Assembly: GCF_055900595.2 (NCBI RefSeq)
Contig: NZ_CM148325.1
Direction: 5' to 3' (one strand)
DNA: 64,000 bases
Positions 502 through 31,398 of the stretch are shown piece by piece. A program made the position numbers and the translations under genes. Every line of letters begins with the position of its first letter. Within the stretch, counting starts at the first letter, position 1. The notes beneath the pieces are model-generated. The model did not search any database and was not told where the DNA came from. It was given only the letters and a program-made list of their open reading frames with translations.

Positions 502-664
502 AGCTCCTCCTTAATGACAGGGTTGCGAAGCCCTGATTCTCTTCAGGGTGAATATTAAAGATAACACAAACATTGCGTAACGATTTGATAACAACCCAAA
601 TTGATAAAAGAGGAGAAACCTTGTGGCAAAGCAAATGAAAACCCCGCCGCAGCGGGGTCAGGGA

Positions 665-745
665 TCAGTGAGTAATGATCCAGAGGAGTTCGGCCCAGAA
701 GAGCATCGACAGAGAAAATGCGCCCATCCAGGACCAATATTTCAT
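665..745 (-). CDS. Small hydrophobic protein, 26 aa (MKYWSWMGAFSLSMLFWAELLWIITH), at the K-12 ymiA/yciX position
   Basis: Short ORF found by manual translation between cysB and acnA; hydrophobic single-helix peptide; below the size cut-off of the ORF track. Confidence 0.4.
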   Translation of the reverse strand: MKYWSWMGAFSLSMLFWAELLWIITH

Positions 746-873
746 ATTTGTGTTGATCATAGGCTACACCCTTAACGGTTATTACTTTGTGTTGAGATAA
801 CTCAACCTGTTATTGCTGCGGTGTATTAAAAGCCCTTTAATTCATTAAAAATGGGTAATAAGAATGATGATAA

Positions 874-2686: not shown

Positions 2687-5284
2687 TTATTTTTTCCCTT
2701 CAACCCATTTGCCATCAACATAAAATGCTGACCAGCCAGTCGCCTTTCCGTCTTTTTCCGAAGAGACATATTGCTGTTTGGTTTTACGGCTAAAGCGAAC
2801 CATGGTCTTATTACCTTCCGGATCCTGCTGTGGCGCATCGGCCAGATAACGCAGTTTTTCCGGCAGACGGTCGCGGAAGCGATAAAGCTCTTCCACCAGT
2901 GGCGCACGTGTTTCACGCGATTTCGGGAAGGTATTGGCCGCCAGGAACACACCGGCAGCACCGTCACGCAGCACGAAATAAGCATCTGATTTTTCGCACG
3001 GCAGCTCCGGTAATGGCACCGGATCTTCCTTCGGTGGTGCCACTTCGCCGTTACGTAAAATCTTACGTGTGTTTTTACACTCTTCGTTAGTGCAGGCCAT
3101 GTATTTACCGAAACGCCCCATTTTCAGGTGCATTTCAGATCCACATTTTTCACACTCAACGATCGGGCCGTCATAACCCTTAATGCGGAATTCGCCCTCT
3201 TCGATCTCGTAACCGTCGCAGGTTGGGTTATTACCACAGACATGCAACTTACGTTTCGGATCGATGAGATAGCTGTCCATCGCCGTGCCGCATTTCGGGC
3301 AACGACGTTTTGCGCGCAGCGCGTTGGTTTCAGCGTCTTCACCTTCCAGCACGTTCAGCACTTCGTTTTCCGGCACCAGGTTGATGGTGGTTTTGCAACG
3401 CTCTTTCGGTGGCAGAGCGTAGCCGGAACAGCCAAGGAATACCCCGGTGCTCGCTGTGCGAATACCCATTTTGCGACCACAGGTCGGGCAGTCGATGCTG
3501 GTCAGAACCATCTGGTTCGGGCGCATACCCCCCTCTTCGGGATCTTTTTCAGCTTTATCTAACTGCTGGGTGAAATCCGAGAAGAAGTGATCCAGTACAG
3601 CTTTCCACTCTGCTTCGTGATTTGCCACCTGGTCGAGGCTGTTTTCCATCTGTGCGGTGAAGTCGTAGTTCATTAACTCACGGAAATTCTCTTCCAGGCG
3701 ATCGGTGACGATTTCGCCCATTTTTTCCGCATAGAAACGACGATTTTCTACTCGCACATAGCCACGATCCTGAATGGTCGAAATGATCGACGCGTAGGTA
3801 GACGGACGACCGATACCGCGTTTTTCCAGCTCTTTAACCAGCGATGCTTCACTGAAACGGGCTGGCGGCTTGGTAAAGTGCTGGGCTGGTGTCAGTTCAA
3901 CGAGCGTCAGAGCATCGCCTTTATCGACTGCCGGTAAGATACGATCTTCATCGCCTTTACGCAGCGCAGGCATCACTTTCGTCCAGCCATCAAAGCGCAA
4001 AATACGACCGCGTGCTTTCAGGCGGAAATCGCCCGCACCAACGGTCAGCGTCGTGGAGTCATATTTCGCTGGGGTCATCTGGCAGGCAACGAACTGACGC
4101 CAGATTAACTGGTACAGTTTCTGCGCATCTGCTTCCATATCCTTCAGCGATTCCGCCATCACATTGACGTCAGAAGGACGAATCGCTTCGTGCGCTTCCT
4201 GTGAGTTTTCTTTGCTGGCGTACTGATTCGGACTTTCCGGCAGATATTTCTTACCAAAATTATCGCTGATATAACCGCGAACCATATTTACTGCGTCCTG
4301 ACTCAGGTTGGTGGAGTCGGTACGCATGTAAGTGATATAGCCTGCTTCATACAAACGCTGCGCCATCATCATGGTTTTTTTCACGCCAAAACCAAGACGG
4401 GTGCTGGCAGCTTGTTGCAGCGTAGAGGTAATAAAAGGAGCGCCAGGTTTACTGGTTGTCGGTTTGTCTTCACGTTCCAGCACGCTGTAGCGCGCTTTTT
4501 CCAGCAGACTTACCGCAGCCTGAGTTTGTTCTTTGTTGACCGGGCGGAACGGTTTGTCGTTCTGATGAGTCACCTGCAACGCCAACGCATCACCAGATGG
4601 CGTGGTCGTGCTGGCATCGACTTCCCAGAACTCTTCCGGTACGAACGCTTTAATTTCACGCTCACGCTCGACCACCAGGCGGACCGCCACCGACTGCACA
4701 CGACCTGCAGACAGACCACGAGCGATCTTTTTCCACAGCAGCGGCGAAACCATATATCCCACCACGCGGTCCATAAAACGACGCGCCTGCTGGGCATTAA
4801 CACGATCAATATTCAGCTCACCCGGTTTGTTAAATGCCTGGCGGATCGCGTTTTTAGTAATTTCGTTAAACACCACTCGGCTATAGCGCGCATCATCACC
4901 ACCAATCACTTCCCGCAGGTGCCATGCAATGGCTTCCCCTTCGCGGTCAAGGTCGGTTGCGAGATAGATGTGGTCGGCTTTTTCAGCCAGTTGTTTCAGT
5001 TCAGAGACGACCTTCTCTTTACCAGGCAACACTTCATAGTGCGCCTCCCAATTGTGCCACGGGTCAACCCCCATACGGTTGACGAGAGCGCCACGTTCAT
5101 CCTTTTTAGGCTTTTTAGCCGTCTTGGTGGAGGTAGAGTCGGCACTCTTTTTGGCAGCTGAGCCACTGGTCGGCAAATCGCGGATGTGACCGACGCTGGA
5201 TTTCACCACGTAGTCACTACCCAGATACTTGTTGATCGTTTTGGCTTTTGCCGGGGACTCAACGATGACAAGAGCTTTACCCAT
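2687..5284 (-). CDS. topA: DNA topoisomerase I
   Basis: ORF track 2687..5326; start set at internal Met ([22 protein letters not shown]) giving 865 aa; C-terminal zinc-ribbon Cys clusters present. Confidence 0.95.
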
Positions 5285-14775: not shown

Positions 14776-14820
14776 ATGAAAGCGATTTTCGTACTGAAAG
14801 GTTGGTGGCGCACTTCCTGA
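14776..14820 (+). CDS. trpL: trp operon leader peptide
   Basis: ATGAAAGCGATTTTCGTACTGAAAGGTTGGTGGCGCACTTCCTGA encodes [14 protein letters not shown] with tandem Trp codons. Confidence 0.92.
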
Positions 14821-14861
14821 AACGGGCAGTGTATTCACCATGCGTAAAGCAACCAGATACC

Positions 14862-14889
14862 CAGCCCGCCTAATGAGCGGGCTTTTTTT
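14862..14889 (+). terminator. trp attenuator (3:4 hairpin and U-tract)
   Basis: CAGCCCGCCTAATGAGCGGGCTTTTTTTT immediately upstream of trpE. Confidence 0.88.
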
Positions 14890-14911
14890 TGAACAAAATT
14901 AGAGAATAACA

Positions 14912-23146: not shown

Positions 23147-23170
23147 TACCCTTTATACCATGTCCTTATT

Positions 23171-23196
23171 GACCCCGTAATTACGGGGTCATTTTT
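23171..23196. terminator. Bidirectional intrinsic terminator between yciE and ompW
   Basis: Palindrome GACCCCGTAATTACGGGGTC followed by ATTTTTGTG on the plus strand. Confidence 0.6.
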
Positions 23197-23320: not shown

Positions 23321-23671
23321 CTGGCAGGTTTTAAAAAATCAAATAAGATATTGTATCTGAAAGAAAAAACAGGATTTTGAGATGCTTTTTTATACCGTTT
23401 TTCAGCGTTTTTAACTGCCTGATTTTATTGAAATCTTTTTTAGTTTTGCAGAAAGGATTTTTTGATCGATTGCTTTAATTTTATACATTCCTGATAACGG
23501 AAATTTTTTACCCGTTGACAGTTTTTATCCTCCGGGGCTATATTTCCAACGCGTCAGCAAAATCTGGCGTCGGGATTGGAACCCCGGATGTTTACGGAGC
23601 GATATGAGACGCGCCCGCGTCTTTTTTCATATCGTTTGCACAGTCACATTCGCGATTTATGGCGGGCTGTG

Positions 23672-23697
23672 TGGGGGAGCCGAAAGGCTCGCCGGTT
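23672..23697 (+). repeat. 26-bp direct repeat copy 1 (TGGGGGAGCCGAAAGGCTCGCCGGTT)
   Basis: Exact 26-bp match to 24412..24437; contains a GAGCC-GAAA-GGCTC tetraloop hairpin. Confidence 0.7.
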
Positions 23698-23791
23698 TCC
23701 GTACCCGGTAGTTCCAACCCCGCACAGTTCGCCACCATGATGATTGGAACCTGAAGGTGGCGATAATTTTCAAATGTACGGAGTTATCGTT

Positions 23792-24352
23792 ATGCCCACT
23801 CAAATTTCTGTCGACACTCTTCCTGCAATCACCCACAACCAGGTCCCCGTTATTACAACTGAACTTCTGGCGCAGTTATACGGAACAAAAATCAAAAACA
23901 TTTCTGATAACTTTCTGAACAACACGACGCGATTCGTGGTAGGAAAGCATTACTTTAAAATTGAAAAAAACGAATTACGCGAGTTTAAGAACAGACCCGA
24001 AACAATCGGGTTAGTTGGTAAAAATGCCCGCTCCCTTATCCTCTGGACAGAACGTGGCGCAGCCCGCCATGCCAAAATGCTCGAAACCGATCAGGCATGG
24101 GAAGTGTTCGAAAAACTGGAAGACTGTTATTTCAGCCAAAAACAACCACCAGCAACACAAAACTCACCCACCCCAAATGATGGATGCGCATTACTGATCC
24201 ACTTTGATAAACACGGTCAGGTAGAGTTCACAGAAAAAGTCCCCGCCGATGCGATGGTATGCACTCTGGAACGGTTTAAATTTTATCTGGAGCAACACGG
24301 CTGGCTCGTTGCCCGTAAAGAACAACTGGTGGAAAGGCTGATGCAGCTTTAG
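23792..24352 (+). CDS. ORF6N-domain phage regulatory protein (antirepressor-like)
   Basis: ORF track 23744..24352; start set at MPTQISVDTLPAI preceded by GGAG; N-terminal motif PVITTELLAQLYGTKIKNISDNFLNNTTRFVVGKHYFKI resembles the ORF6N/Rha-like DNA-binding domain. Confidence 0.6.
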   Translation: MPTQISVDTLPAITHNQVPVITTELLAQLYGTKIKNISDNFLNNTTRFVVGKHYFKIEKNELREFKNRPETIGLVGKNARSLILWTERGAARHAKMLETDQAWEVFEKLEDCYFSQKQPPATQNSPTPNDGCALLIHFDKHGQVEFTEKVPADAMVCTLERFKFYLEQHGWLVARKEQLVERLMQL

Positions 24353-24411
24353 CAGATATAACAAGTGTTTTTTCTCGTATGCACGCGCACATATGAATTA
24401 TTGTGGGGCGC

Positions 24412-24458
24412 ATGGGGGAGCCGAAAGGCTCGCCGGTTCAACTCCCGCCAGCTCCACC
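24412..24458 (+). repeat. 26-bp direct repeat copy 2 fused to a tmRNA (ssrA) 3'-end-like sequence GGTTCAACTCCCGCCAGCTCCACCA
   Basis: Exact repeat of 23672..23697, then a 25-nt stretch matching my recollection of the E. coli ssrA 3' terminus (T-arm, acceptor 3' strand, CCA). Confidence 0.55.
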
Positions 24459-24730
24459 ATTTTTGACAGGACTGCAACCGGACATCGACAATAAAAACAG
24501 ATAATTACGGACACTGACCAGACAACAAACAGACCTGAACAAGACAAAAATATACACGTGAAATGCACGTGCACTTTATAAAAACCCCAGATTTCACAGT
24601 CTGGGGTTTTTCTGTTTGTAAATAATGGTAACAAAAACACATCACCTTTTGGCGTTCCGTTCCTCTTGACACTGTTTATCCATACAGTTAAAAATAACAC
24701 TGTATACAAACACAGTGTAGAGGGATTTTT

Positions 24731-24979
24731 ATGCGTATTGAAATCTGTATCGCTAAAGAAAAATTCAGTAAAATGCCAAAAGGCTCTGTACCTGCTCTAC
24801 AACAGGAAATGTCTAGCCGTATCAGAAAACGATATGACGATGTGGAGGTTATAGTAAAATCCGCCAGTAATGACGGACTGACCATTTTAAGAGCCGTAGA
24901 TAAAGAAAACGCTCAGAAGTTCATACAGGAAACGCTGCAGGAAGTCTGGGAAACTGCTGATGACTGGTTTTTTCACTAA
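24731..24979 (+). CDS. DinI-family protein
   Basis: 82-aa [15 protein letters not shown]...[17 protein letters not shown]; the C-terminal ETWExADDWF motif is typical of DinI. Confidence 0.75.
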
Positions 24980-25362
24980 TCAGGACGTCAAATAAATAAC
25001 AACTGTAATTATTCTCTCCAAATTAACAATCTCTGTATACATACTCAGGCGTGTTCACGCATACAACACGCCTTTCTGATATTTAATTGTTTACAGAAAT
25101 ATTGCCGAATAAAAATATAAACCATAGTCTTAAAAAAATAATAATTCCACTATAGCTATCCCAGAACAACCAGTACAAATAATAAAAGACATATCACAGC
25201 AACACTCCACACTGACAGCGCAAAAATAAATGCCGCCTTTGTTATCTTCATATACAAGCAACCTGTCCTGATAATCACCAACTCATGTTTTATTCTTAAC
25301 CATTCGTCACAAATACAACAAAAAATAACAGCAGCAGCACCGATATCACAATATAAGATACA

Positions 25363-25818
25363 TTATTCAACACCTGAATCCCCCGCCGCTTCTCTCCCCT
25401 TTATAAAACGCCCCTTCCGGAATCCAGACCGCTGCAGTGCACGACGAAGATGACCGTATACCGTCTTGTCATTCTGCCCCGTCTCTTCTGTAATCTCCGC
25501 AATACTTAAACCTCTGTAATACCGGTTCAGTACCGCTCTGCGCTCTTCCAGCGTCAACACACCTCCGGCCGCTCTCAGATTCATCATCGACTTATTCAGA
25601 ATACAGCAGGCCTCTCCGGTAAAAAGAATACGAACAATATCTGTATACTCATCATCACAGAATACAAAATAATATCTGAATGACCTGCCTGACTGCACCC
25701 TTCTTCTGTCTGATATGGCATCTTCTATATATCTGATTCGACTGCTTACGGTTCCAAATATCTCTCGCAGGGCTTTTTCAAAATAAATATCTCTCGTCGC
25801 CAGGATTATATCCAGCAT
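25363..25818 (-). CDS. LuxR/GerE-type helix-turn-helix transcriptional regulator
   Basis: 151-aa ORF; C-terminal LTLEERRAVLNRYYRGLSIAEITEETGQNDKTVYGHLRRA resembles the GerE HTH; sits immediately downstream of the adhesin gene. Confidence 0.6.
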   Translation of the reverse strand: MLDIILATRDIYFEKALREIFGTVSSRIRYIEDAISDRRRVQSGRSFRYYFVFCDDEYTDIVRILFTGEACCILNKSMMNLRAAGGVLTLEERRAVLNRYYRGLSIAEITEETGQNDKTVYGHLRRALQRSGFRKGRFIKGREAAGDSGVE

Positions 25819-25879
25819 CTCTGTACCTCATTATATCCCGGGGGACTCCCCCCGGGACAGATATCTAAATCCTGACCTG

Positions 25880-27520
25880 TCAGAACTCAAAATTCACACC
25901 AGCATTCCACGATGCGGATGACCCACCTGCAGCAACTGCAACTTTTCCTGCCACATTCTCTGTGAAACGGTAGCCCACGCCCACCGCAATGGCCTGCTCA
26001 TCACGGTAACCACCAACGGCTGCTGTCGCGTTAAATTTTCCAACACTGTATGGCTGGAAAAGACCGGCCAGTGCCGCGCTCTGGGCTGCACTCTCCCTTA
26101 ACTCCTTCCGGTTCTCTTTAATCTGCTCCTGCATATTATTCATTCTCTCTGTCGCCATCTTCTGCCAGGCTTCCGTCAAATCCAGACGATGACTGTTATT
26201 CCTTATCGCTGCTGTATTTGAGGCTATTGCTGCATCCGTCTGCGCCACCGCTGCCGATGTGACTGCAATAATATCCCTGCTGAGTTCATCACGTACTGCT
26301 GTAACCTGACTGTCAGTATGAGCACGGGCATCTCTGTATACACCGCCTATCTCACCACGCAGACTGTCTCCCTCTGCCTTCAGTTCATCACGTACTGCTG
26401 TGACCTGACTGTCAGTATGAGCACGGGCATCTCTGTATACACCACCTATCTCACCACGCAGACTGTCTCCCTCTGCCTTCAGTTCATCACGTACTGCTGT
26501 GACCTGACTGTCAGTATGAGCACGGGCATCTCTGTATACACCGCCTATCTCACCACGCAGACTGTCTCCCTCTGCCTTCAGTTCATCACGTACTGCTGTG
26601 ACCTGACTGTCAGTATGAGCACGGGCATCTCTGTATACACCACCTATCTCACCACGCAGACTGTCTCCCTCTGCCTTCAGTTCATCACGTACTGCTGTGA
26701 CCTGACTGTCAGTATGAGCACGGGCATCTCTGTATACACCGCCTATCTCACCACGCAGACTGTCTCCCTCTGCCTTCAGTTCATCACGTACTGCTGTGAC
26801 CTGACTGTCAGTATGAGCACGGGCATCTCTGTATACACCACCTATCTCACCACGCAGACTGTCTCCCTGTGATTTCACTTCAACCCCAAGGTTGCGGGTA
26901 CGATTATCCAGCTCCACGACGAATTCTTTAACAGGGACTGTCTGAGCATTTCCGTCAGCCCTTCCGTCAGCAGTGATTCGGCCTGATGAATCCAGAACAA
27001 AATTCTGGCCTTCAACTACATTTTTATACAATGATGACAATCCCGATGTTGTATTACTAATTTTAATAAAATCCTCAGCGGTACCACCAGCATTAACAGC
27101 GGCGATATAATCATCCTTGTTTTCTGGCTTGATTATTTTTTGTAGTGATTCTTTTGTATCAACAATGGACTTTATATCTTCTGCTTTTATATTTCTGATG
27201 TTTTCGGCTTTTAATGCATCTGAGTAGATGGGGTAAGTTAGCAAATCCTGAGCAACAATATGCCTAGCATTCTCAGGAGCTGCTAATATAGCACGCGTAA
27301 TAGAATCATTCGGGACAATACGCCCTGTATTAGCTCCAGTAATAGTATTAATAAGATTAACATCATTACCTTTTGATATTACTGCCGCACCATTATCATA
27401 CAGAGTAACCTCATATCCATCTACATTAAAACTCTCTTCTGCCATAACCCCCACAGAGTAACATAACAGCGCACCGGTAACCGCCATTGCCAATACATTC
27501 TTTGCCATTATAAATTTCAT
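25880..27520 (-). CDS. YadA-like trimeric autotransporter adhesin (Eib immunoglobulin-binding-family-like)
   Basis: 546 aa; signal peptide; six tandem 33-aa coiled-coil repeats; C-terminal anchor [63 protein letters not shown] resembles YadA/Eib membrane anchors. Confidence 0.75.
26283..26872. repeat. Six tandem copies of a 99-bp repeat (two alternating variants) inside the adhesin gene
   Basis: GTCAGTATGAGCACGGGC recurs at 26312, 26411, 26510, 26609, 26708 and 26807 (period exactly 99); variants alternate CACCGCC/CACCACC. Confidence 0.9.
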
Positions 27521-27915
27521 ATGGTATATCCTGTTAAGAAGATTAAACTGTAACCCCCCCTGAATAAGCAGGCGAGATTCTTTTCCAGGATACCTTTCAG
27601 AGTCACCACTGCATTGATTTTAACAATCAATACAGTTAACATGGAATTATAGGATAAATGCACCCCGATAAAACAATATGAGCGTTCTTGTCCCCATATG
27701 TCAGCAGAGCATTCAGATATAGCTGTCAGAATAACCGTTTCCTACATCAGTCATTCATCACAGACTCAATTGTGAATCAGTTCACCTTTTTTGCAATTCC
27801 TTTATTGATCGAAAGCAGTTAATCACAGAAATTAATTACCGGAGTGAAAGCATTTGCTATGTAAACATTCCCAGAAGACATCTTCATGTTGAATATTATT
27901 CCCTTATTGACTACA

Positions 27916-27948
27916 CCCCTCTGACAGAATTTTCAGAGGGGTTTTTTT
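27916..27948 (+). terminator. Plus-strand intrinsic terminator-like hairpin between tfa and the adhesin gene
   Basis: CCCCTCTGA-CAGAATTT-TCAGAGGGG followed by TTTTTTT. Confidence 0.4.
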
Positions 27949-27955
27949 ATCAGTT

Positions 27956-28531
27956 TCACCATCCAACCCTGTACGCCAGAATGGTTTCACTGTCACTCAG
28001 TTCTGCTATTGCCTTTTTCATCTCCCTTTGCCTTATATGTATTTCAAGGCCTTTCCTGAACATCGCTTTACCAGCAGCATCACTCAGGGATATCAGTTCA
28101 TCTGCCGTCATCGGTACATCATTATTCTCTGCGTCCGTCCAGAAAAATCCTTCCGGCAACACACCGCCTCTGGCCGCTGATGCCGACATTCCAAGACGTG
28201 TCATGGCTTCCTTTCCATAATCCCATTTCCGTCCTCTGTGCTCAAAAACATACCCTGACGCCTCCATCGCATCACGCCAGGCATTTATCTCCGCGTTTTT
28301 CATCCTGCGTGCTTCTTCCACAGCCATATCATCATTTGCCCGGTACTCACCTACCGGCCCTGCATCACCTCTTATGCAGGCTTCAAATATTTCACGACCG
28401 TAAGACTCAGGATCATCCGCACTTGCTGTAAATACACATTCTGTTTCCGCGTCTGAAAACTTCACTATACAGTTTATGGTCGTATGACCCCTGTCAGCCC
28501 ACACTGGTGACGTGATTTTATCGACCTTCAT
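27956..28531 (-). CDS. Tail fibre assembly protein (lambda Tfa-like)
   Basis: 191 aa, immediately downstream of the side tail fibre gene; Tfa-like composition and conserved Trp/Asp pattern. Confidence 0.75.
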   Translation of the reverse strand: MKVDKITSPVWADRGHTTINCIVKFSDAETECVFTASADDPESYGREIFEACIRGDAGPVGEYRANDDMAVEEARRMKNAEINAWRDAMEASGYVFEHRGRKWDYGKEAMTRLGMSASAARGGVLPEGFFWTDAENNDVPMTADELISLSDAAGKAMFRKGLEIHIRQREMKKAIAELSDSETILAYRVGW

Positions 28532-28545
28532 TCATTTCTCCCCTG

Positions 28546-30396
28546 TCACCGTATTCTCTGAAACAGGCCCCAAATCGTCCCAATGATATTATTGACTGTC
28601 ATGTTAGTTGTGCATAACATCCATGTACCAAGCATATGATTGCCAAATAAAAAGCGGATATCTGTAAGTTTATCCGATGACGACGACACAATAACGGCCT
28701 GTCTGATACGATACCCGGGTATTTCACGGGTATTTGTTACCTCATGATTTCGTTCTATGATCCCCAGAACATAAGACCCCACGGAATAAACACTTCCGAC
28801 GCTCGCTGGCTGCCCCGGCTGTCCCTGCGGACCTGCCGGGCCGCGTGCACCTGTATCGCCCTTTAGTCCCTGAGGACCTGCCGGGCCGCGTTCACCTGTA
28901 TCCCCCTTTAGTCCCTGTGGACCTGCCGGACCGCGTTCACCTGTATCGCCCTTTGGTCCCTGTGGGCCACGCTCCCCCTGGGCTCCCAGCTCTTTCCATT
29001 CAGACCAGGGGCCATTACCGGTAAAATTACCAGTAACAGTTCTTACGAACTTTCGTGGTGGGTTCCAGGTTGTATATTCATGCTGGCAATATCCCCATGC
29101 ACCAACTCTTACCTGAAGATAACCCGCTCTCTGAATCGGATAATTATTTTCTCGTGTAGCCCCACTGTCTGATGGCTGATAATAATCACCCTGATCGGTC
29201 ACTCGTCCCAGTCGGTTCAGATCACCATTCAGCAGTTGTCCACGGGCTGACTCTCCTCTTGGTCCCTGAGGGCCTTCCGGACCACGTGCACCTGTTTCGC
29301 CCTTTGCTCCCTGTGGACCTGCCGGGCCGCGTTCACCTGTTTCACCTTTTGGTCCCTGTGGACCTGCCGGGCCGCGTTCACCTGTATCCCCCTTTAGTCC
29401 CTGTGGACCTGCCGGACCGCGTTCACCTGTTTCACCTTTTGGTCCCTGTGGTCCTGCCGGGCCGCGTTCACCTGTTTCACCCTTTGCTCCCTGTGGACCT
29501 TCCGGGCCACGTTCACCTGTATCGCCCTTTAGTCCCTGTGGACCTGCCGGACCGCGTTCACCTGTTTCACCTTTTGGTCCCTGTGGACCTCCCGGATCTC
29601 CTTTATCCCCCTTAGGGCCTTTTTCTCCTCGCTCACCCTTTTCTCCCTTCAGACCCTGAGGGCCTTCCGGACCACGTGCACCTGTTTCGCCCTTTGCTCC
29701 CTGTGGACCTGCCGGGCCGCGTTCACCTGTTTCACCTTTTGGTCCCTGTGGACCTGCCGGGCCGCGTGCACCTGTTTCACCCTTTGGTCCCTGAGGACCT
29801 GCCGGGCCGCGTTCACCTGTATCGCCCTTTAGTCCCTGTGGACCTGCCGGACCGCGTTCACCTGTTTCACCTTTTGGTCCCTGTGGTCCTGCCGGGCCAC
29901 GTGCTCCTGTTTCACCTTTTGGCCCCTGTGGCCCGGTAATGCCTCTTTCACCACGTGCGCCGGTATCCCCTTTCTCTCCTCGTGGTCCCCGGGCAGATGC
30001 AGCTCGTTTCCGGGCTTCCTCCGCCTCAGATGCCGCGGACTCTGCTCTGTGCAGTATGGACTGCACCACAGCCTCCAGCTCTGACAACGCCTTCGGATAA
30101 TAAGGAGCATCTTCCATCTCCATCAGAAATTTATTCAGTGTTCCCGGTGAAGAATCCTCCCTGACCACGATATCTCCCACATACGAAGGACGGTAACCTT
30201 CTGTATTGAGTGTCACCCTGTATATTCCTGGCTCCACATCCATACTGTAACTCCCCGTCTCTTCCGGCATGCCATAAGCCACTGTCGTGGCGATGACTGT
30301 CTCGCTGGTTCTCTTCGCTTTCAGCTCAATAATGCATCCCGGTACCGGTTTTCCGGTTCCGTCCCTCAGCACGCCTGAAATTTTTACAGCCGCCAT
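28546..30396 (-). CDS. Side tail fibre protein with collagen-like Gly-X-Y repeats (lambda Stf-like N-terminus)
   Basis: 616 aa; N-terminus [29 protein letters not shown] resembles lambda Stf; long [19 protein letters not shown] collagen-like tracts. Confidence 0.85.
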
Positions 30397-30468
30397 ACTC
30401 GCTCCATAAAAAATAATCCCGCAAAATTGCGGGCGTCGTCATTCATTTACAATCGGGTGTTTTTATGA

Positions 30469-30714
30469 TTACTTCACGCACGAAACTTTCGTAAACATAT
30501 CTTCACTCACCCACTGACCATAAAATCTCGGAGCTGATACTTTATACACAGTGCCGCTTTTCGTTTCTATTTTCCCTGTAAGATCTACCGTATAAGCTCG
30601 CTGTAAAACCCCGGGACTCAGCACACCGGTGCACCGGACTCTCTCCGTAACGGAACGGTACCCCGCGCAACCTGATACAAGAAACAGCAAAAAAGTGCAG
30701 ACGATTATTTTCAT
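30469..30714 (-). CDS. Small lipoprotein, 81 aa (possible Cor-like superinfection-exclusion protein)
   Basis: Signal peptide with lipobox LVSGC; size and position just distal to J match Cor-type lipoproteins of lambdoid phages; sequence similarity unverified. Confidence 0.45.
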   Translation of the reverse strand: MKIIVCTFLLFLVSGCAGYRSVTERVRCTGVLSPGVLQRAYTVDLTGKIETKSGTVYKVSAPRFYGQWVSEDMFTKVSCVK

Positions 30715-30735
30715 TACATGCCCTCAACATAACTA

Positions 30736-31398
30736 TCAGTACGCATCATAAATTTCTGCATTTATGTAATAACAGAGGTTATTAACAACACCTGAATTAT
30801 CATTGGGCGCCGCTACGTTATCTTCAGCAAAAGTTGACTGACGCCATAACTGTGAGTTTCTGGCATTAAAACTGGCGGTATACCAGTAATAACTCTCCCC
30901 TTCCTGAACTGTCGTCCACTGGGTACACCCCGGCATTACGGCCACATCATGTCCCACACTGATCGGTACATCCTTTTCCCATATTCGCGTCATTTTTACT
31001 TCCAGTGGCAGCATTTCCGTGTTCCAGACCACCCTGCCATGACTGTCGCACAACTGTATTCCCCATTGCGGCCATACATTCACCATGTTGGCAAAAACAT
31101 AAACAACATATGTGCTGTCCTGTTCCATGCCCGGCTCCTGCCCTGTACCAGCGCTGAAAATGTCATACTGCCAGGTACCGTTAAGCTGAACCATTTCACC
31201 ATGGAAGGACTGATTACCGCTTATCTGTTTAATAAAAATCACGCAACGATAATTCGTCGGCACCCCGGTGTCGATAAACTGCATCACCGCATCACGCGCA
31301 CTCAGTGTGAAATGAAAACGGCGCACAAGGTTCAGTGGCGGCGCAACAGGTGATATCCATTCTCTCCCCCGCTCATCAGTTAATTTAAGTGCAAACAT
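30736..31398 (-). CDS. Hypothetical phage protein, 220 aa
   Basis: ORF track; Trp/Tyr-rich; sits where lambda carries lom. Confidence 0.5.
   Translation of the reverse strand: MFALKLTDERGREWISPVAPPLNLVRRFHFTLSARDAVMQFIDTGVPTNYRCVIFIKQISGNQSFHGEMVQLNGTWQYDIFSAGTGQEPGMEQDSTYVVYVFANMVNVWPQWGIQLCDSHGRVVWNTEMLPLEVKMTRIWEKDVPISVGHDVAVMPGCTQWTTVQEGESYYWYTASFNARNSQLWRQSTFAEDNVAAPNDNSGVVNNLCYYINAEIYDAY

What the first reader, a model, noticed from the sequence alone, without database searches (positions are those of the whole stretch)
27916..27948. Orphan plus-strand terminator between tfa and the adhesin gene
A strong hairpin plus T-run is oriented against all neighbouring genes (both flanking genes are on the minus strand). 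It may block antisense read-through into the tail operon or mark the 3' end of an unannotated plus-strand small RNA originating in the 27521-27915 spacer.
Basis: seen in the sequence. Interest (0 to 1): 0.2.

Follow-up and report, generated by a model that had tools for sequence, protein, structure and literature searches.

The report
Backward-facing terminator after prophage tail gene
A textbook transcription-stop hairpin sits just after the last tail-fibre gene of an E. coli prophage but faces the wrong way; relatives carry the same arrangement, so it is probably a one-way barrier keeping stray antisense transcription out of the tail genes, which is ordinary but real.

Summary
At 27915-27942 there is a perfect 10-bp, GC-rich hairpin followed by T7 (27942-27948) on the + strand. 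It ends 7 nt before the stop codon of the minus-strand tfa-like gene. Under strict criteria it is one of only two such sites in the 64-kb window, against none in shuffles.

The locus is an Eib-type lambdoid prophage end: J, stf, orf-191/DUF4376 tfa, hairpin, YadA-like adhesin, sigma-r4-like regulator.

The main new result is comparative. In seven of ten flank types from 49 viral contigs, and in seven published phage records, the tfa stop codon is followed within 8-17 nt by an A-run and then a GC hairpin. This is a terminator facing away from the tail operon. The hairpin sequences differ, and the cargo beyond them differs.

Where no cargo is inserted, a convergent gene (CxxCxxCC protein) runs into this hairpin. 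So it most likely began as the terminator of a convergent accessory operon. It now acts as a one-way barrier at the cargo insertion site.

I found no support for a discrete small RNA: no Rfam match, no promoter, and no structured body. RNA data would be needed to exclude it. This is an ordinary, unannotated intrinsic terminator and of low interest.

The parts
27915..27942 (+). Terminator hairpin: arms ACCCCTCTGA / TCAGAGGGGT with loop CAGAATTT
   Evidence: The stem is kept in three alleles across 370 E. coli genomes, including a paired change on both arms that turns the 10-bp stem into a perfect 9-bp stem.
27942..27948 (+). T7 tract (U-tract of a + strand transcript). It reads as an A-run ahead of the hairpin on the tail-gene strand.
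   Evidence: All alleles seen keep 6-7 T. The tract ends 7 nt before the tfa stop codon (27956-27958).
27789..27914 (.). Block conserved together with the hairpin. 27789-27853 is invariant in the 7 loci aligned; 27854-27912 is variable, with a 26-nt deletion in the ~76%-identity group of 116 genomes.
   Evidence: There is no significant fold on either strand and no convincing promoter.
27956..28531 (-). orf-191-type tail fibre assembly-like gene (DUF4376), the last gene of the tail operon
   Evidence: Pfam PF14301, E 1.5e-20. It is 56% identical to ORF-191A of prophage P-EibA.
28546..30396 (-). Side tail fibre gene (phage_tail_N plus collagen repeats)
   Evidence: annotated as prophage tail fiber in strain Ch1.
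25880..27520 (-). YadA-anchor trimeric autotransporter adhesin (Eib-like cargo gene) with an AGGA ribosome-binding site
   Evidence: The C-terminal 200 aa are 43% identical to EibD. A 99-bp tandem repeat x6.1 lies at 26283-26882.
25363..25818 (-). Sigma-70 region-4-like HTH protein (weak ORF-156 counterpart), always found next to the adhesin
   Evidence: gene neighbourhoods.
24731..24979 (+). dinI-like gene, the nearest upstream + strand gene. A weak terminator-like hairpin lies at about 25047-25073.
   Evidence: The hairpin has a 9-nt loop and only 4 T in the next 8 nt, so it could be leaky (read from the sequence).

Best explanation
This is a genuine Rho-independent terminator that acts only on + strand transcripts. 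It belongs to the phage backbone at the 3' edge of the tail-fibre operon, not to the adhesin cassette. In the ancestral layout it ended a convergent accessory operon (dinI / CxxCxxCC-type genes) that runs towards the tail genes from the prophage end. The adhesin-plus-regulator cargo was later inserted behind it, which left it without a + strand gene of its own.

In its present place it works as a one-way valve. RNA polymerase coming from the AT-rich adhesin control region, from antisense starts inside the cargo, or from read-through of the ant-dinI unit is released at about 27946-27949, before it enters tfa/stf in antisense. Tail-operon transcription on the minus strand meets a hairpin with no U-tract and passes on into the cargo.

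What is shown: the motif, its strength, its one-sidedness, its positional conservation, and the convergent gene in relatives. What is inferred: that it terminates in vivo, and which transcripts it stops.
For: - **Motif quality.** The motif is canonical and far beyond chance.
- **One-sidedness.** On the tail strand, 6-7 of the 8 nt before the hairpin are A and only 1-3 of the 8 nt after it are T.
- **Positional conservation with different sequences.** Among 49 IMG/VR loci encoding DUF4376 tfa homologues, the stop codon is followed within 8-17 nt by A5-7 and a GC hairpin in seven of ten flank types. One further type (L017) is bidirectional, with the stronger T-run on the tail strand, and two lack it.
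- **Published phages.** The same arrangement is seen in P-EibA, P-EibC, P-EibD, PhiR5_1, GER2, phiSTEC1589-Stx1c and 1720a-02.
- **Independence from cargo.** Downstream genes are co-oriented adhesins, a co-oriented 563-aa protein, or host DNA.
- **Convergent gene in relatives.** In L026/L028 a convergent CxxCxxCC gene (PF03692) stops about 130 nt before the hairpin, and I saw no other terminator-like hairpin in between. Sakai Sp15 has dinI and a CxxCxxCC remnant converging on the tail fibre, with a hairpin carrying runs on both sides.
- **Stem maintained.** Three alleles in 370 genomes keep the stem, including a change on both arms that preserves perfect pairing.
- **Possible source of + strand transcripts.** The spacer is 37% GC. 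From my own knowledge, DNA of this kind in E. coli is prone to spurious and divergent initiation.
Against: No RNA data were available, so termination in vivo is unproven.

No + strand promoter was found between the dinI hairpin (~25070) and 27915 that stands out from chance: 10 promoter-like hits against 8.6 expected.

In about 350 genomes the hairpin survives in an island remnant that has no tail operon left to protect. Its persistence there cannot be due to that function and may simply reflect recent common descent.

Some of the flank types share flanking sequence (ACAGA[CT]AAAAA), so they are not all independent.

Lambda itself has a hairpin after tfa but no A-run.
Confidence: 0.6

Rival explanations
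1. The hairpin is the terminator of a discrete, unannotated + strand small RNA, possibly Hfq-binding, made from the conserved block 27789-27914 or from a start just upstream of the hairpin.
For: - The 3' module fits an Hfq-type sRNA: a stable hairpin, 7 U, and an A/U-rich stretch (UUAUUCCCUUAUU) just 5' of it (criteria as cited in the reference list of PMC4104026).
- The pattern of an invariant 65-nt block (27789-27853), then a variable segment, then a conserved terminator resembles some sRNA genes.
- A -10-like TATTAT lies at 27894-27899, and -10-like hexamers precede the hairpin in other families.
- Convergent short sRNAs are documented at another cargo insertion site of lambdoid prophages (PMC4104026).
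Against: - No Rfam family matches at gathering score or at E <= 10 beyond generic terminator matches.
- No sigma-70-like promoter with a usable -35 is found in the spacer on the + strand.
- The block has no fold beyond chance (z -0.08).
- Sequence left of 27789 differs completely between loci that share the hairpin.
- The Sakai Hfq peaks I checked are not at tfa ends.
- A start at about 27906 would give only a 42-nt bare hairpin.
Confidence: 0.15
2. The hairpin is an evolutionary leftover with no present function: the terminator of a convergent gene that was displaced by the adhesin cassette and is carried along passively.
For: - There is no + strand gene for 2.8 kb upstream, and dinI has its own hairpin.
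- The element persists unchanged in about 350 island remnants with no tail genes. This is what neutral hitch-hiking over a short time would give.
- One flank type with co-oriented cargo (L032) has a much weakened 4-bp stem.
Against: - Strong stems and 5-7 T are retained in most cargo-bearing families with unrelated hairpin sequences.
- Paired changes in the AR0089 allele keep a perfect stem.
- Two + strand terminators in tandem in P-EibA/PhiR5_1 and GF60-type loci suggest there is + strand transcription to stop.
Confidence: 0.15
3. The hairpin works on the minus strand. It would act as the end of the tail-operon mRNA, either as a weak terminator or as a 3' stem-loop that protects the processed late transcript from exonucleases.
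For: - It lies 13 nt after the tfa stop codon and folds equally well on the minus strand (-19.8 kcal/mol, z -5.5).
- Two related flank types and Sakai Sp15 do have T-runs on the tail strand as well (L013, L017, Sp15).
Against: - On the minus strand the stem is followed by GUGUAGUC, with 3 U in 8. By the accepted rules for intrinsic terminators, efficient termination is therefore not expected.
- This reading does not explain why 5-7 A precede the hairpin in family after family.
- The stem is too short for an RNase III site (my own knowledge).
Confidence: 0.1

Closest known systems
Rho-independent (intrinsic) transcription terminator of E. coli
   Same: It has a GC-rich 10-bp stem, an 8-nt loop and a 7-U tract directly after the stem, and its energy lies well beyond shuffled controls.
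   Different: No annotated gene or known RNA on the same strand ends here, and both neighbouring genes are on the other strand.
Bidirectional terminators between convergent genes (A-tract, hairpin, U-tract; described from full-length RNA profiling in E. coli, recalled from my own knowledge and not checked in a paper here)
   Same: The hairpin sits at the junction of two transcription domains. In relatives the domains are convergent (L026/L028, Sakai Sp15), and some related hairpins carry runs on both sides.
   Different: Here the run is on one side only, and the flanking genes are co-oriented, so it is a one-way element rather than a two-way one.
Moron / cargo insertion sites of lambdoid prophages, including the convergent sRNA pairs next to cargo downstream of PR' (Juhala et al. 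2000 as cited in, and Tree et al. 2014 = PMC4104026)
   Same: A backbone gene, then an oppositely oriented terminator-bearing element, then variable cargo. The Eib prophages P-EibA/C/D have the same gene order: orf-191, adhesin, orf-156.
   Different: This is a different insertion site (after tfa, not after PR'). No sRNA has been shown here, and there is no sequence similarity to any Rfam family.
Hfq-binding 3' module of enterobacterial sRNAs (hairpin preceded by a U-rich stretch and followed by >=7 U)
   Same: Hairpin plus 7 U, with an A/U-rich stretch upstream.
   Different: No promoter, no conserved structured body and no expression evidence.

Membership tests
Intrinsic (Rho-independent) terminator | GC-rich stem of about 5-14 bp with a short loop | tested here: met
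   Perfect 10-bp stem, 6 G-C pairs, 8-nt loop; -18.6 kcal/mol, z -4.2.
Intrinsic (Rho-independent) terminator | U-rich tract immediately 3' of the stem | tested here: met
   T7 at 27942-27948 on the + strand. On the minus strand only 3 of 8.
Intrinsic (Rho-independent) terminator | Transcripts actually end at the U-tract | not testable with these tools
   No RNA 3'-end data were available; this needs Term-seq, 3' RACE or a reporter assay.
Intrinsic (Rho-independent) terminator | Lies at the 3' end of a transcription unit on the same strand | tested here: not met
   There is no + strand gene or Rfam RNA within 2.8 kb upstream. In relatives L026/L028 a convergent gene does end about 130 nt before the equivalent hairpin.
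Bidirectional terminator of a convergent gene pair | A-tract 5' and U-tract 3' of one hairpin, so that both strands carry a U-tract | tested here: not met
   Only the + strand has the run.
Bidirectional terminator of a convergent gene pair | Located between convergent genes | tested here: not met
   tfa and the adhesin are both on the minus strand.
Trans-acting small RNA gene (Hfq-type) | Own promoter or defined 5' end | tested here: inconclusive
   No sigma-70-like + strand site in 27521-27915 reaches 9 of 12. Only isolated -10-like hexamers are present. A consensus scan cannot exclude a promoter.
Trans-acting small RNA gene (Hfq-type) | Match to a described RNA family, or a conserved body with structure | tested here: not met
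   No Rfam hit; the block 27789-27914 gives z -0.08.
Trans-acting small RNA gene (Hfq-type) | Terminator hairpin with >=7 U and an upstream U-rich stretch | tested here: met
   Sequence at 27895-27948.
Eib-type prophage cargo locus (orf-191, trimeric autotransporter adhesin, orf-156) | The same three genes in the same order after the side tail fibre gene | tested here: met
   tfa is 56% identical to ORF-191A. The adhesin C-terminus is 43% identical to EibD with a YadA anchor. The regulator is only weakly like ORF-156D (21% identity, E 4e-4)..
Eib-type prophage cargo locus (orf-191, trimeric autotransporter adhesin, orf-156) | Immunoglobulin binding by the adhesin | not testable with these tools
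   The passenger domain is not similar to EibD outside the stalk and anchor.

The most novel reading that the evidence does not exclude
The anti-tail hairpin is the 3' end of a family of short prophage RNAs made at the cargo insertion site after tfa. This would parallel the convergent anti-sRNAs found next to cargo downstream of PR'. The conserved 27789-27853 block or the variable 5' segment would act as a seed. A weaker version is that backward-facing terminators are a selected design rule marking and insulating this insertion site in Eib-type lambdoid prophages.
Probability: 0.15. Interest if true: 0.4.

Novelty: new member of a known kind. Interest (0 to 1): 0.17.

Why it matters
Taken alone this is an unannotated terminator and changes little. 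Its modest value is comparative. The same backward-facing terminator abuts the last tail-fibre gene in many E. coli prophages that carry adhesins or other cargo there. That marks the backbone/cargo boundary precisely and explains how cargo can be read through from the tail operon while the tail genes are shielded from antisense transcription.

It is a useful landmark for annotating prophage ends and remnants. A 247-bp piece containing it survives in about 6% of complete E. coli genomes. It is also a cheap, testable example of a one-way transcriptional insulator.

Tried and rejected
- **Known RNA family.** Rfam at gathering score over the whole window, and at E <= 10 over 27300-28200, gave only generic terminator-shaped weak matches (best E 0.64). 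Rejected.
- **Dispersed repeat (REP-like).** The hairpin occurs once in the window. Elsewhere I found it only with YadA-like loci: all eight neighbourhoods inspected have such a gene or a disrupted remnant of it. Rejected.
- **Small + strand ORF.** A 12-aa ORF (27887-27925) ends in the stem, and a 44-aa TTG ORF lies at 27688-27822. Neither is conserved: the stop is lost in L060 and the left spacer differs between loci. Rejected.
- **Small minus-strand ORF or type I toxin.** The 22-aa ORF (MKMSSGNVYIANAFTPVINFCD) is not hydrophobic and is removed by the 26-nt deletion allele. Rejected.
- **HnrS / EcOnc sRNAs of EHEC.** HnrS is described within the late genes of Sp9/10/12, mainly in EHEC/EPEC. 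The EcOnc peaks I looked up (04, 06, 22, 31, 43, 47, 54) are not at tfa 3' ends.
- **Phage and plasmid databases for the same DNA.** There is no near match in phages. Only tfa coding similarity at about 70% was found, plus one plasmid copy.
- **Exact-pattern scan of viral contigs for this hairpin.** Only one contig was found, which I already had.
- **EibG expression paper.** It has no promoter or terminator mapping.
- **Lambda as a comparator.** It has a hairpin after tfa but no A-run, so the feature is not universal.

Full report
**1. The observation**

The + strand at 27915-27949 reads ACCCCTCTGA CAGAATTT TCAGAGGGGT TTTTTTA. That is a perfect 10-bp stem with six G-C pairs, an 8-nt loop and seven T.
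- The consensus scan ranks it first among terminator-like sites in 25000-31000.
- The inverted-repeat finder gives 100% complementary arms.
- The RNA folds at -18.6 kcal/mol, z = -4.2, with no shuffle folding as well.
- Under strict criteria (perfect stem >=8, >=4 GC, >=6 T in the next 8), the whole 64-kb window holds only two such sites on either strand. The other, at 23170-23191, follows yciE. Thirty dinucleotide shuffles gave none.
- On the minus strand the hairpin folds equally well. There it is preceded by A7 and followed by GUGUAGUC, so the run needed for intrinsic termination is on the + strand only.

The T-tract ends 7 nt before the stop codon (27956-27958) of the minus-strand gene 27956-28531. 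The next gene to the left, 25880-27520, is also on the minus strand.

**2. Where we are**

The window is E. coli chromosome, 100% identical over the tested stretch to the poultry isolates Ch1 and GF4. It holds a lambdoid prophage next to trpA-yciGFE and an ompW remnant.

On the minus strand the order is:
- J;
- the side tail fibre gene (phage_tail_N plus collagen repeats);
- a 191-aa DUF4376 protein;
- the hairpin;
- a 546-aa protein with a YadA membrane anchor;
- a 151-aa sigma-70 region-4-like protein.

This is the layout of the Eib prophages of strain ECOR-9: J, lom, orf-401, orf-191, eib, orf-156. The 191-aa protein is 56% identical to ORF-191A. The adhesin's last 200 residues are 43% identical to EibD. 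The small regulator resembles ORF-156D only weakly.

Further left, on the + strand and pointing towards the tail genes, are isrK, C4, an ORF6N antirepressor, a two-sided terminator and dinI. dinI is followed by a weak terminator-like hairpin at about 25047-25073.

**3. Distribution of this particular hairpin**

A 247-bp piece, 27789-28035, occurs in 370 of 5426 complete E. coli genomes. It comprises a 126-nt block, the hairpin, and the last ~80 nt of tfa.

Only 21 genomes have the intact tfa. In the rest the piece is a remnant. In the six such loci I inspected it lies beside a transposase fragment, near a YadA-like gene (or a disrupted remnant of one), usually with the sigma-like gene, in a chromosomal island.

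Left of 27789 the sequence differs completely between locus types.

Three alleles of the hairpin exist, and all keep at least 9 perfect pairs and 6-7 T. In the allele carried by the ~76%-identity group of 116 genomes, both arms have changed so that a perfect 9-bp stem closed by A-T results. The 60 nt just upstream in that allele carry a 26-nt deletion and many substitutions.

**4. The comparative result**

I collected 49 viral-contig loci that encode relatives of the DUF4376 protein and read the DNA after each stop codon. The flanks fall into about ten sequence types.
- **Seven types:** the stop codon is followed within 8-17 nt by five to seven A and then a GC-rich hairpin. Only 1-3 T lie in the 8 nt beyond it, except in the L013 type, which has 5. 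This is a terminator that faces away from the tail operon.
- **One type (L017):** runs on both sides, with the stronger T-run on the tail strand.
- **Two types:** no such terminator (L025 has no hairpin, and L055 has a hairpin without runs).

The hairpin sequences differ between types. Examples are GGGGCGCTCCAGCCCC, ATGGGGGACCATCACCTCCCCCAT and GGGGGTGATACCTCACCCCC. Three types share flanking sequence and so are not fully independent.

The same arrangement is present in seven published phage records: P-EibA, P-EibC, P-EibD, PhiR5_1, GER2, phiSTEC1589-Stx1c and 1720a-02. Lambda has a hairpin after tfa but no A-run.

What lies beyond the hairpin varies:
- co-oriented YadA-like adhesins;
- a co-oriented 563-aa protein of unknown family;
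- in L026/L028, a convergent CxxCxxCC (PF03692) gene whose stop codon is about 130 nt before the hairpin, with no other terminator-like hairpin that I could see in between.

In Sakai prophage Sp15, dinI and a remnant of that CxxCxxCC gene converge on the tail fibre genes, and the hairpin there has runs on both sides.

The simplest reading is that the hairpin belongs to the tfa backbone and began as the terminator of a convergent accessory operon. Cargo cassettes such as the adhesin pair have since been inserted behind it.

**5. How it most likely works here**

The element is one-way.
- **+ strand transcripts** would terminate at about 27946-27949, just outside tfa. These could be read-through from ant-dinI past a weak hairpin, antisense starts inside the cargo, or divergent starts in the 37%-GC spacer.
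- **Minus-strand tail-operon transcription** meets a hairpin with no U-tract and should continue into the adhesin gene.

That termination happens in vivo, and which transcripts it acts on, are inferences. I give this reading 0.6.

**6. Rival readings**

- **A discrete small RNA (0.15).** The 3' module looks right for Hfq, and prophages are known to encode short convergent sRNAs next to cargo at the PR' site (PMC4104026). Against this, there is no Rfam match and no + strand promoter in the spacer above chance level. The conserved block has no structure beyond chance. Seven Hfq peaks of strain Sakai that I looked up do not lie at tfa ends.
- **A functionless relic (0.15).** This fits the survival of the piece in islands without tail genes. 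It fits less well with the retention of strong stems and T-runs across unrelated hairpin sequences, or with the tandem + strand terminators seen in some loci.
- **A role on the minus strand (0.1).** Acting as an mRNA end or stabiliser does not explain the recurrent A-run.

**7. Comparison with known kinds, and verdict**

By sequence criteria this is a standard intrinsic terminator. It fails only the criterion of having a same-strand transcription unit in this window. It is not a bidirectional terminator, because the run is one-sided and the neighbours are co-oriented.

It is unannotated in the RefSeq and GenBank records I inspected. In those records the Eib authors marked other stem-loops but not this one.

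I class it as a new member of a known kind and of low interest (0.17). The recurrent backward-facing terminator at the tfa/cargo boundary is a tidy comparative observation, not a surprise.

Noticed in passing
window 26283-26882: The adhesin gene contains a 99-bp tandem repeat in 6.1 copies (98% matches), encoding 33-aa stalk repeats. The allele in strain Ch1 is 198 bp (two units) shorter, so repeat number varies between otherwise identical prophages.
   Followed up: partly
window 27789-28035; loci L003-L008: A 247-bp prophage remnant (block, hairpin and last ~80 nt of tfa) occurs in about 350 of 5426 complete E. coli genomes. In the six loci inspected it lies next to a YadA-like gene (intact or disrupted), usually with a sigma-like gene, beside a transposase fragment and (in five of the six) a transketolase/PTS operon. 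Only 21 genomes keep the intact tfa. Some poultry isolates have up to 7-8 copies, and one conjugative plasmid (NZ_OP290546.1) also carries it.
   Followed up: partly
L002 about 3840-3880 (GF60-type loci); L009 3355-3395; L011 2965-2995: Several related loci carry a second terminator-like hairpin with its T-run on the same anti-tail strand, 120-290 nt before the tfa-proximal one. Examples are CCGCACG..CGTGCGG + T6 and GGGGAGCGCGCACTCCCC + T7. Tandem same-direction terminators hint at real transcription towards the tail genes, or at a short unit between them.
   Followed up: no
window 27608-27636: An AT-rich inverted repeat (12-nt arms, 92% complementary, 5-nt gap: ACTGCATTGATT / AATCAATACAGT) lies about 90-115 nt upstream of the adhesin start codon. 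It could be a regulator binding site.
   Followed up: no
window 23551-24979: The prophage end carries an isrK-like RNA (72.7 bits), a C4 antisense RNA (78.9 bits), an ORF6N antirepressor gene, a two-sided terminator at 24580-24611 and dinI. All are on the + strand and point towards the tail genes. This is the isrK/C4/ant immunity-type module known from Gifsy-1 and P1-like phages.
   Followed up: partly
window 631-833; 14797-14890; 57612-57762; 61048-61223: Other Rfam hits in the window are STnc180, the trp leader, two tRNAs and a sok antitoxin RNA (a hok/sok-type locus near 61 kb).
   Followed up: no
L023 3913-5604; L048 3925-5616: In some related prophages the cargo after the tfa hairpin is a co-oriented 541-563-aa protein (MPYIDITTMRGMMPGV...) with no Pfam match.
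   Followed up: no
L064 1680-1800 (Sakai Sp15, NC_002695.2 about 2896680-2896800): Read by eye from the DNA, there appears to be an unannotated remnant of the CxxCxxCC (PF03692) gene between dinI and the tail fibre genes of Sp15. It converges on a hairpin that has runs on both sides. I did not test it by alignment or translation.
   Followed up: partly
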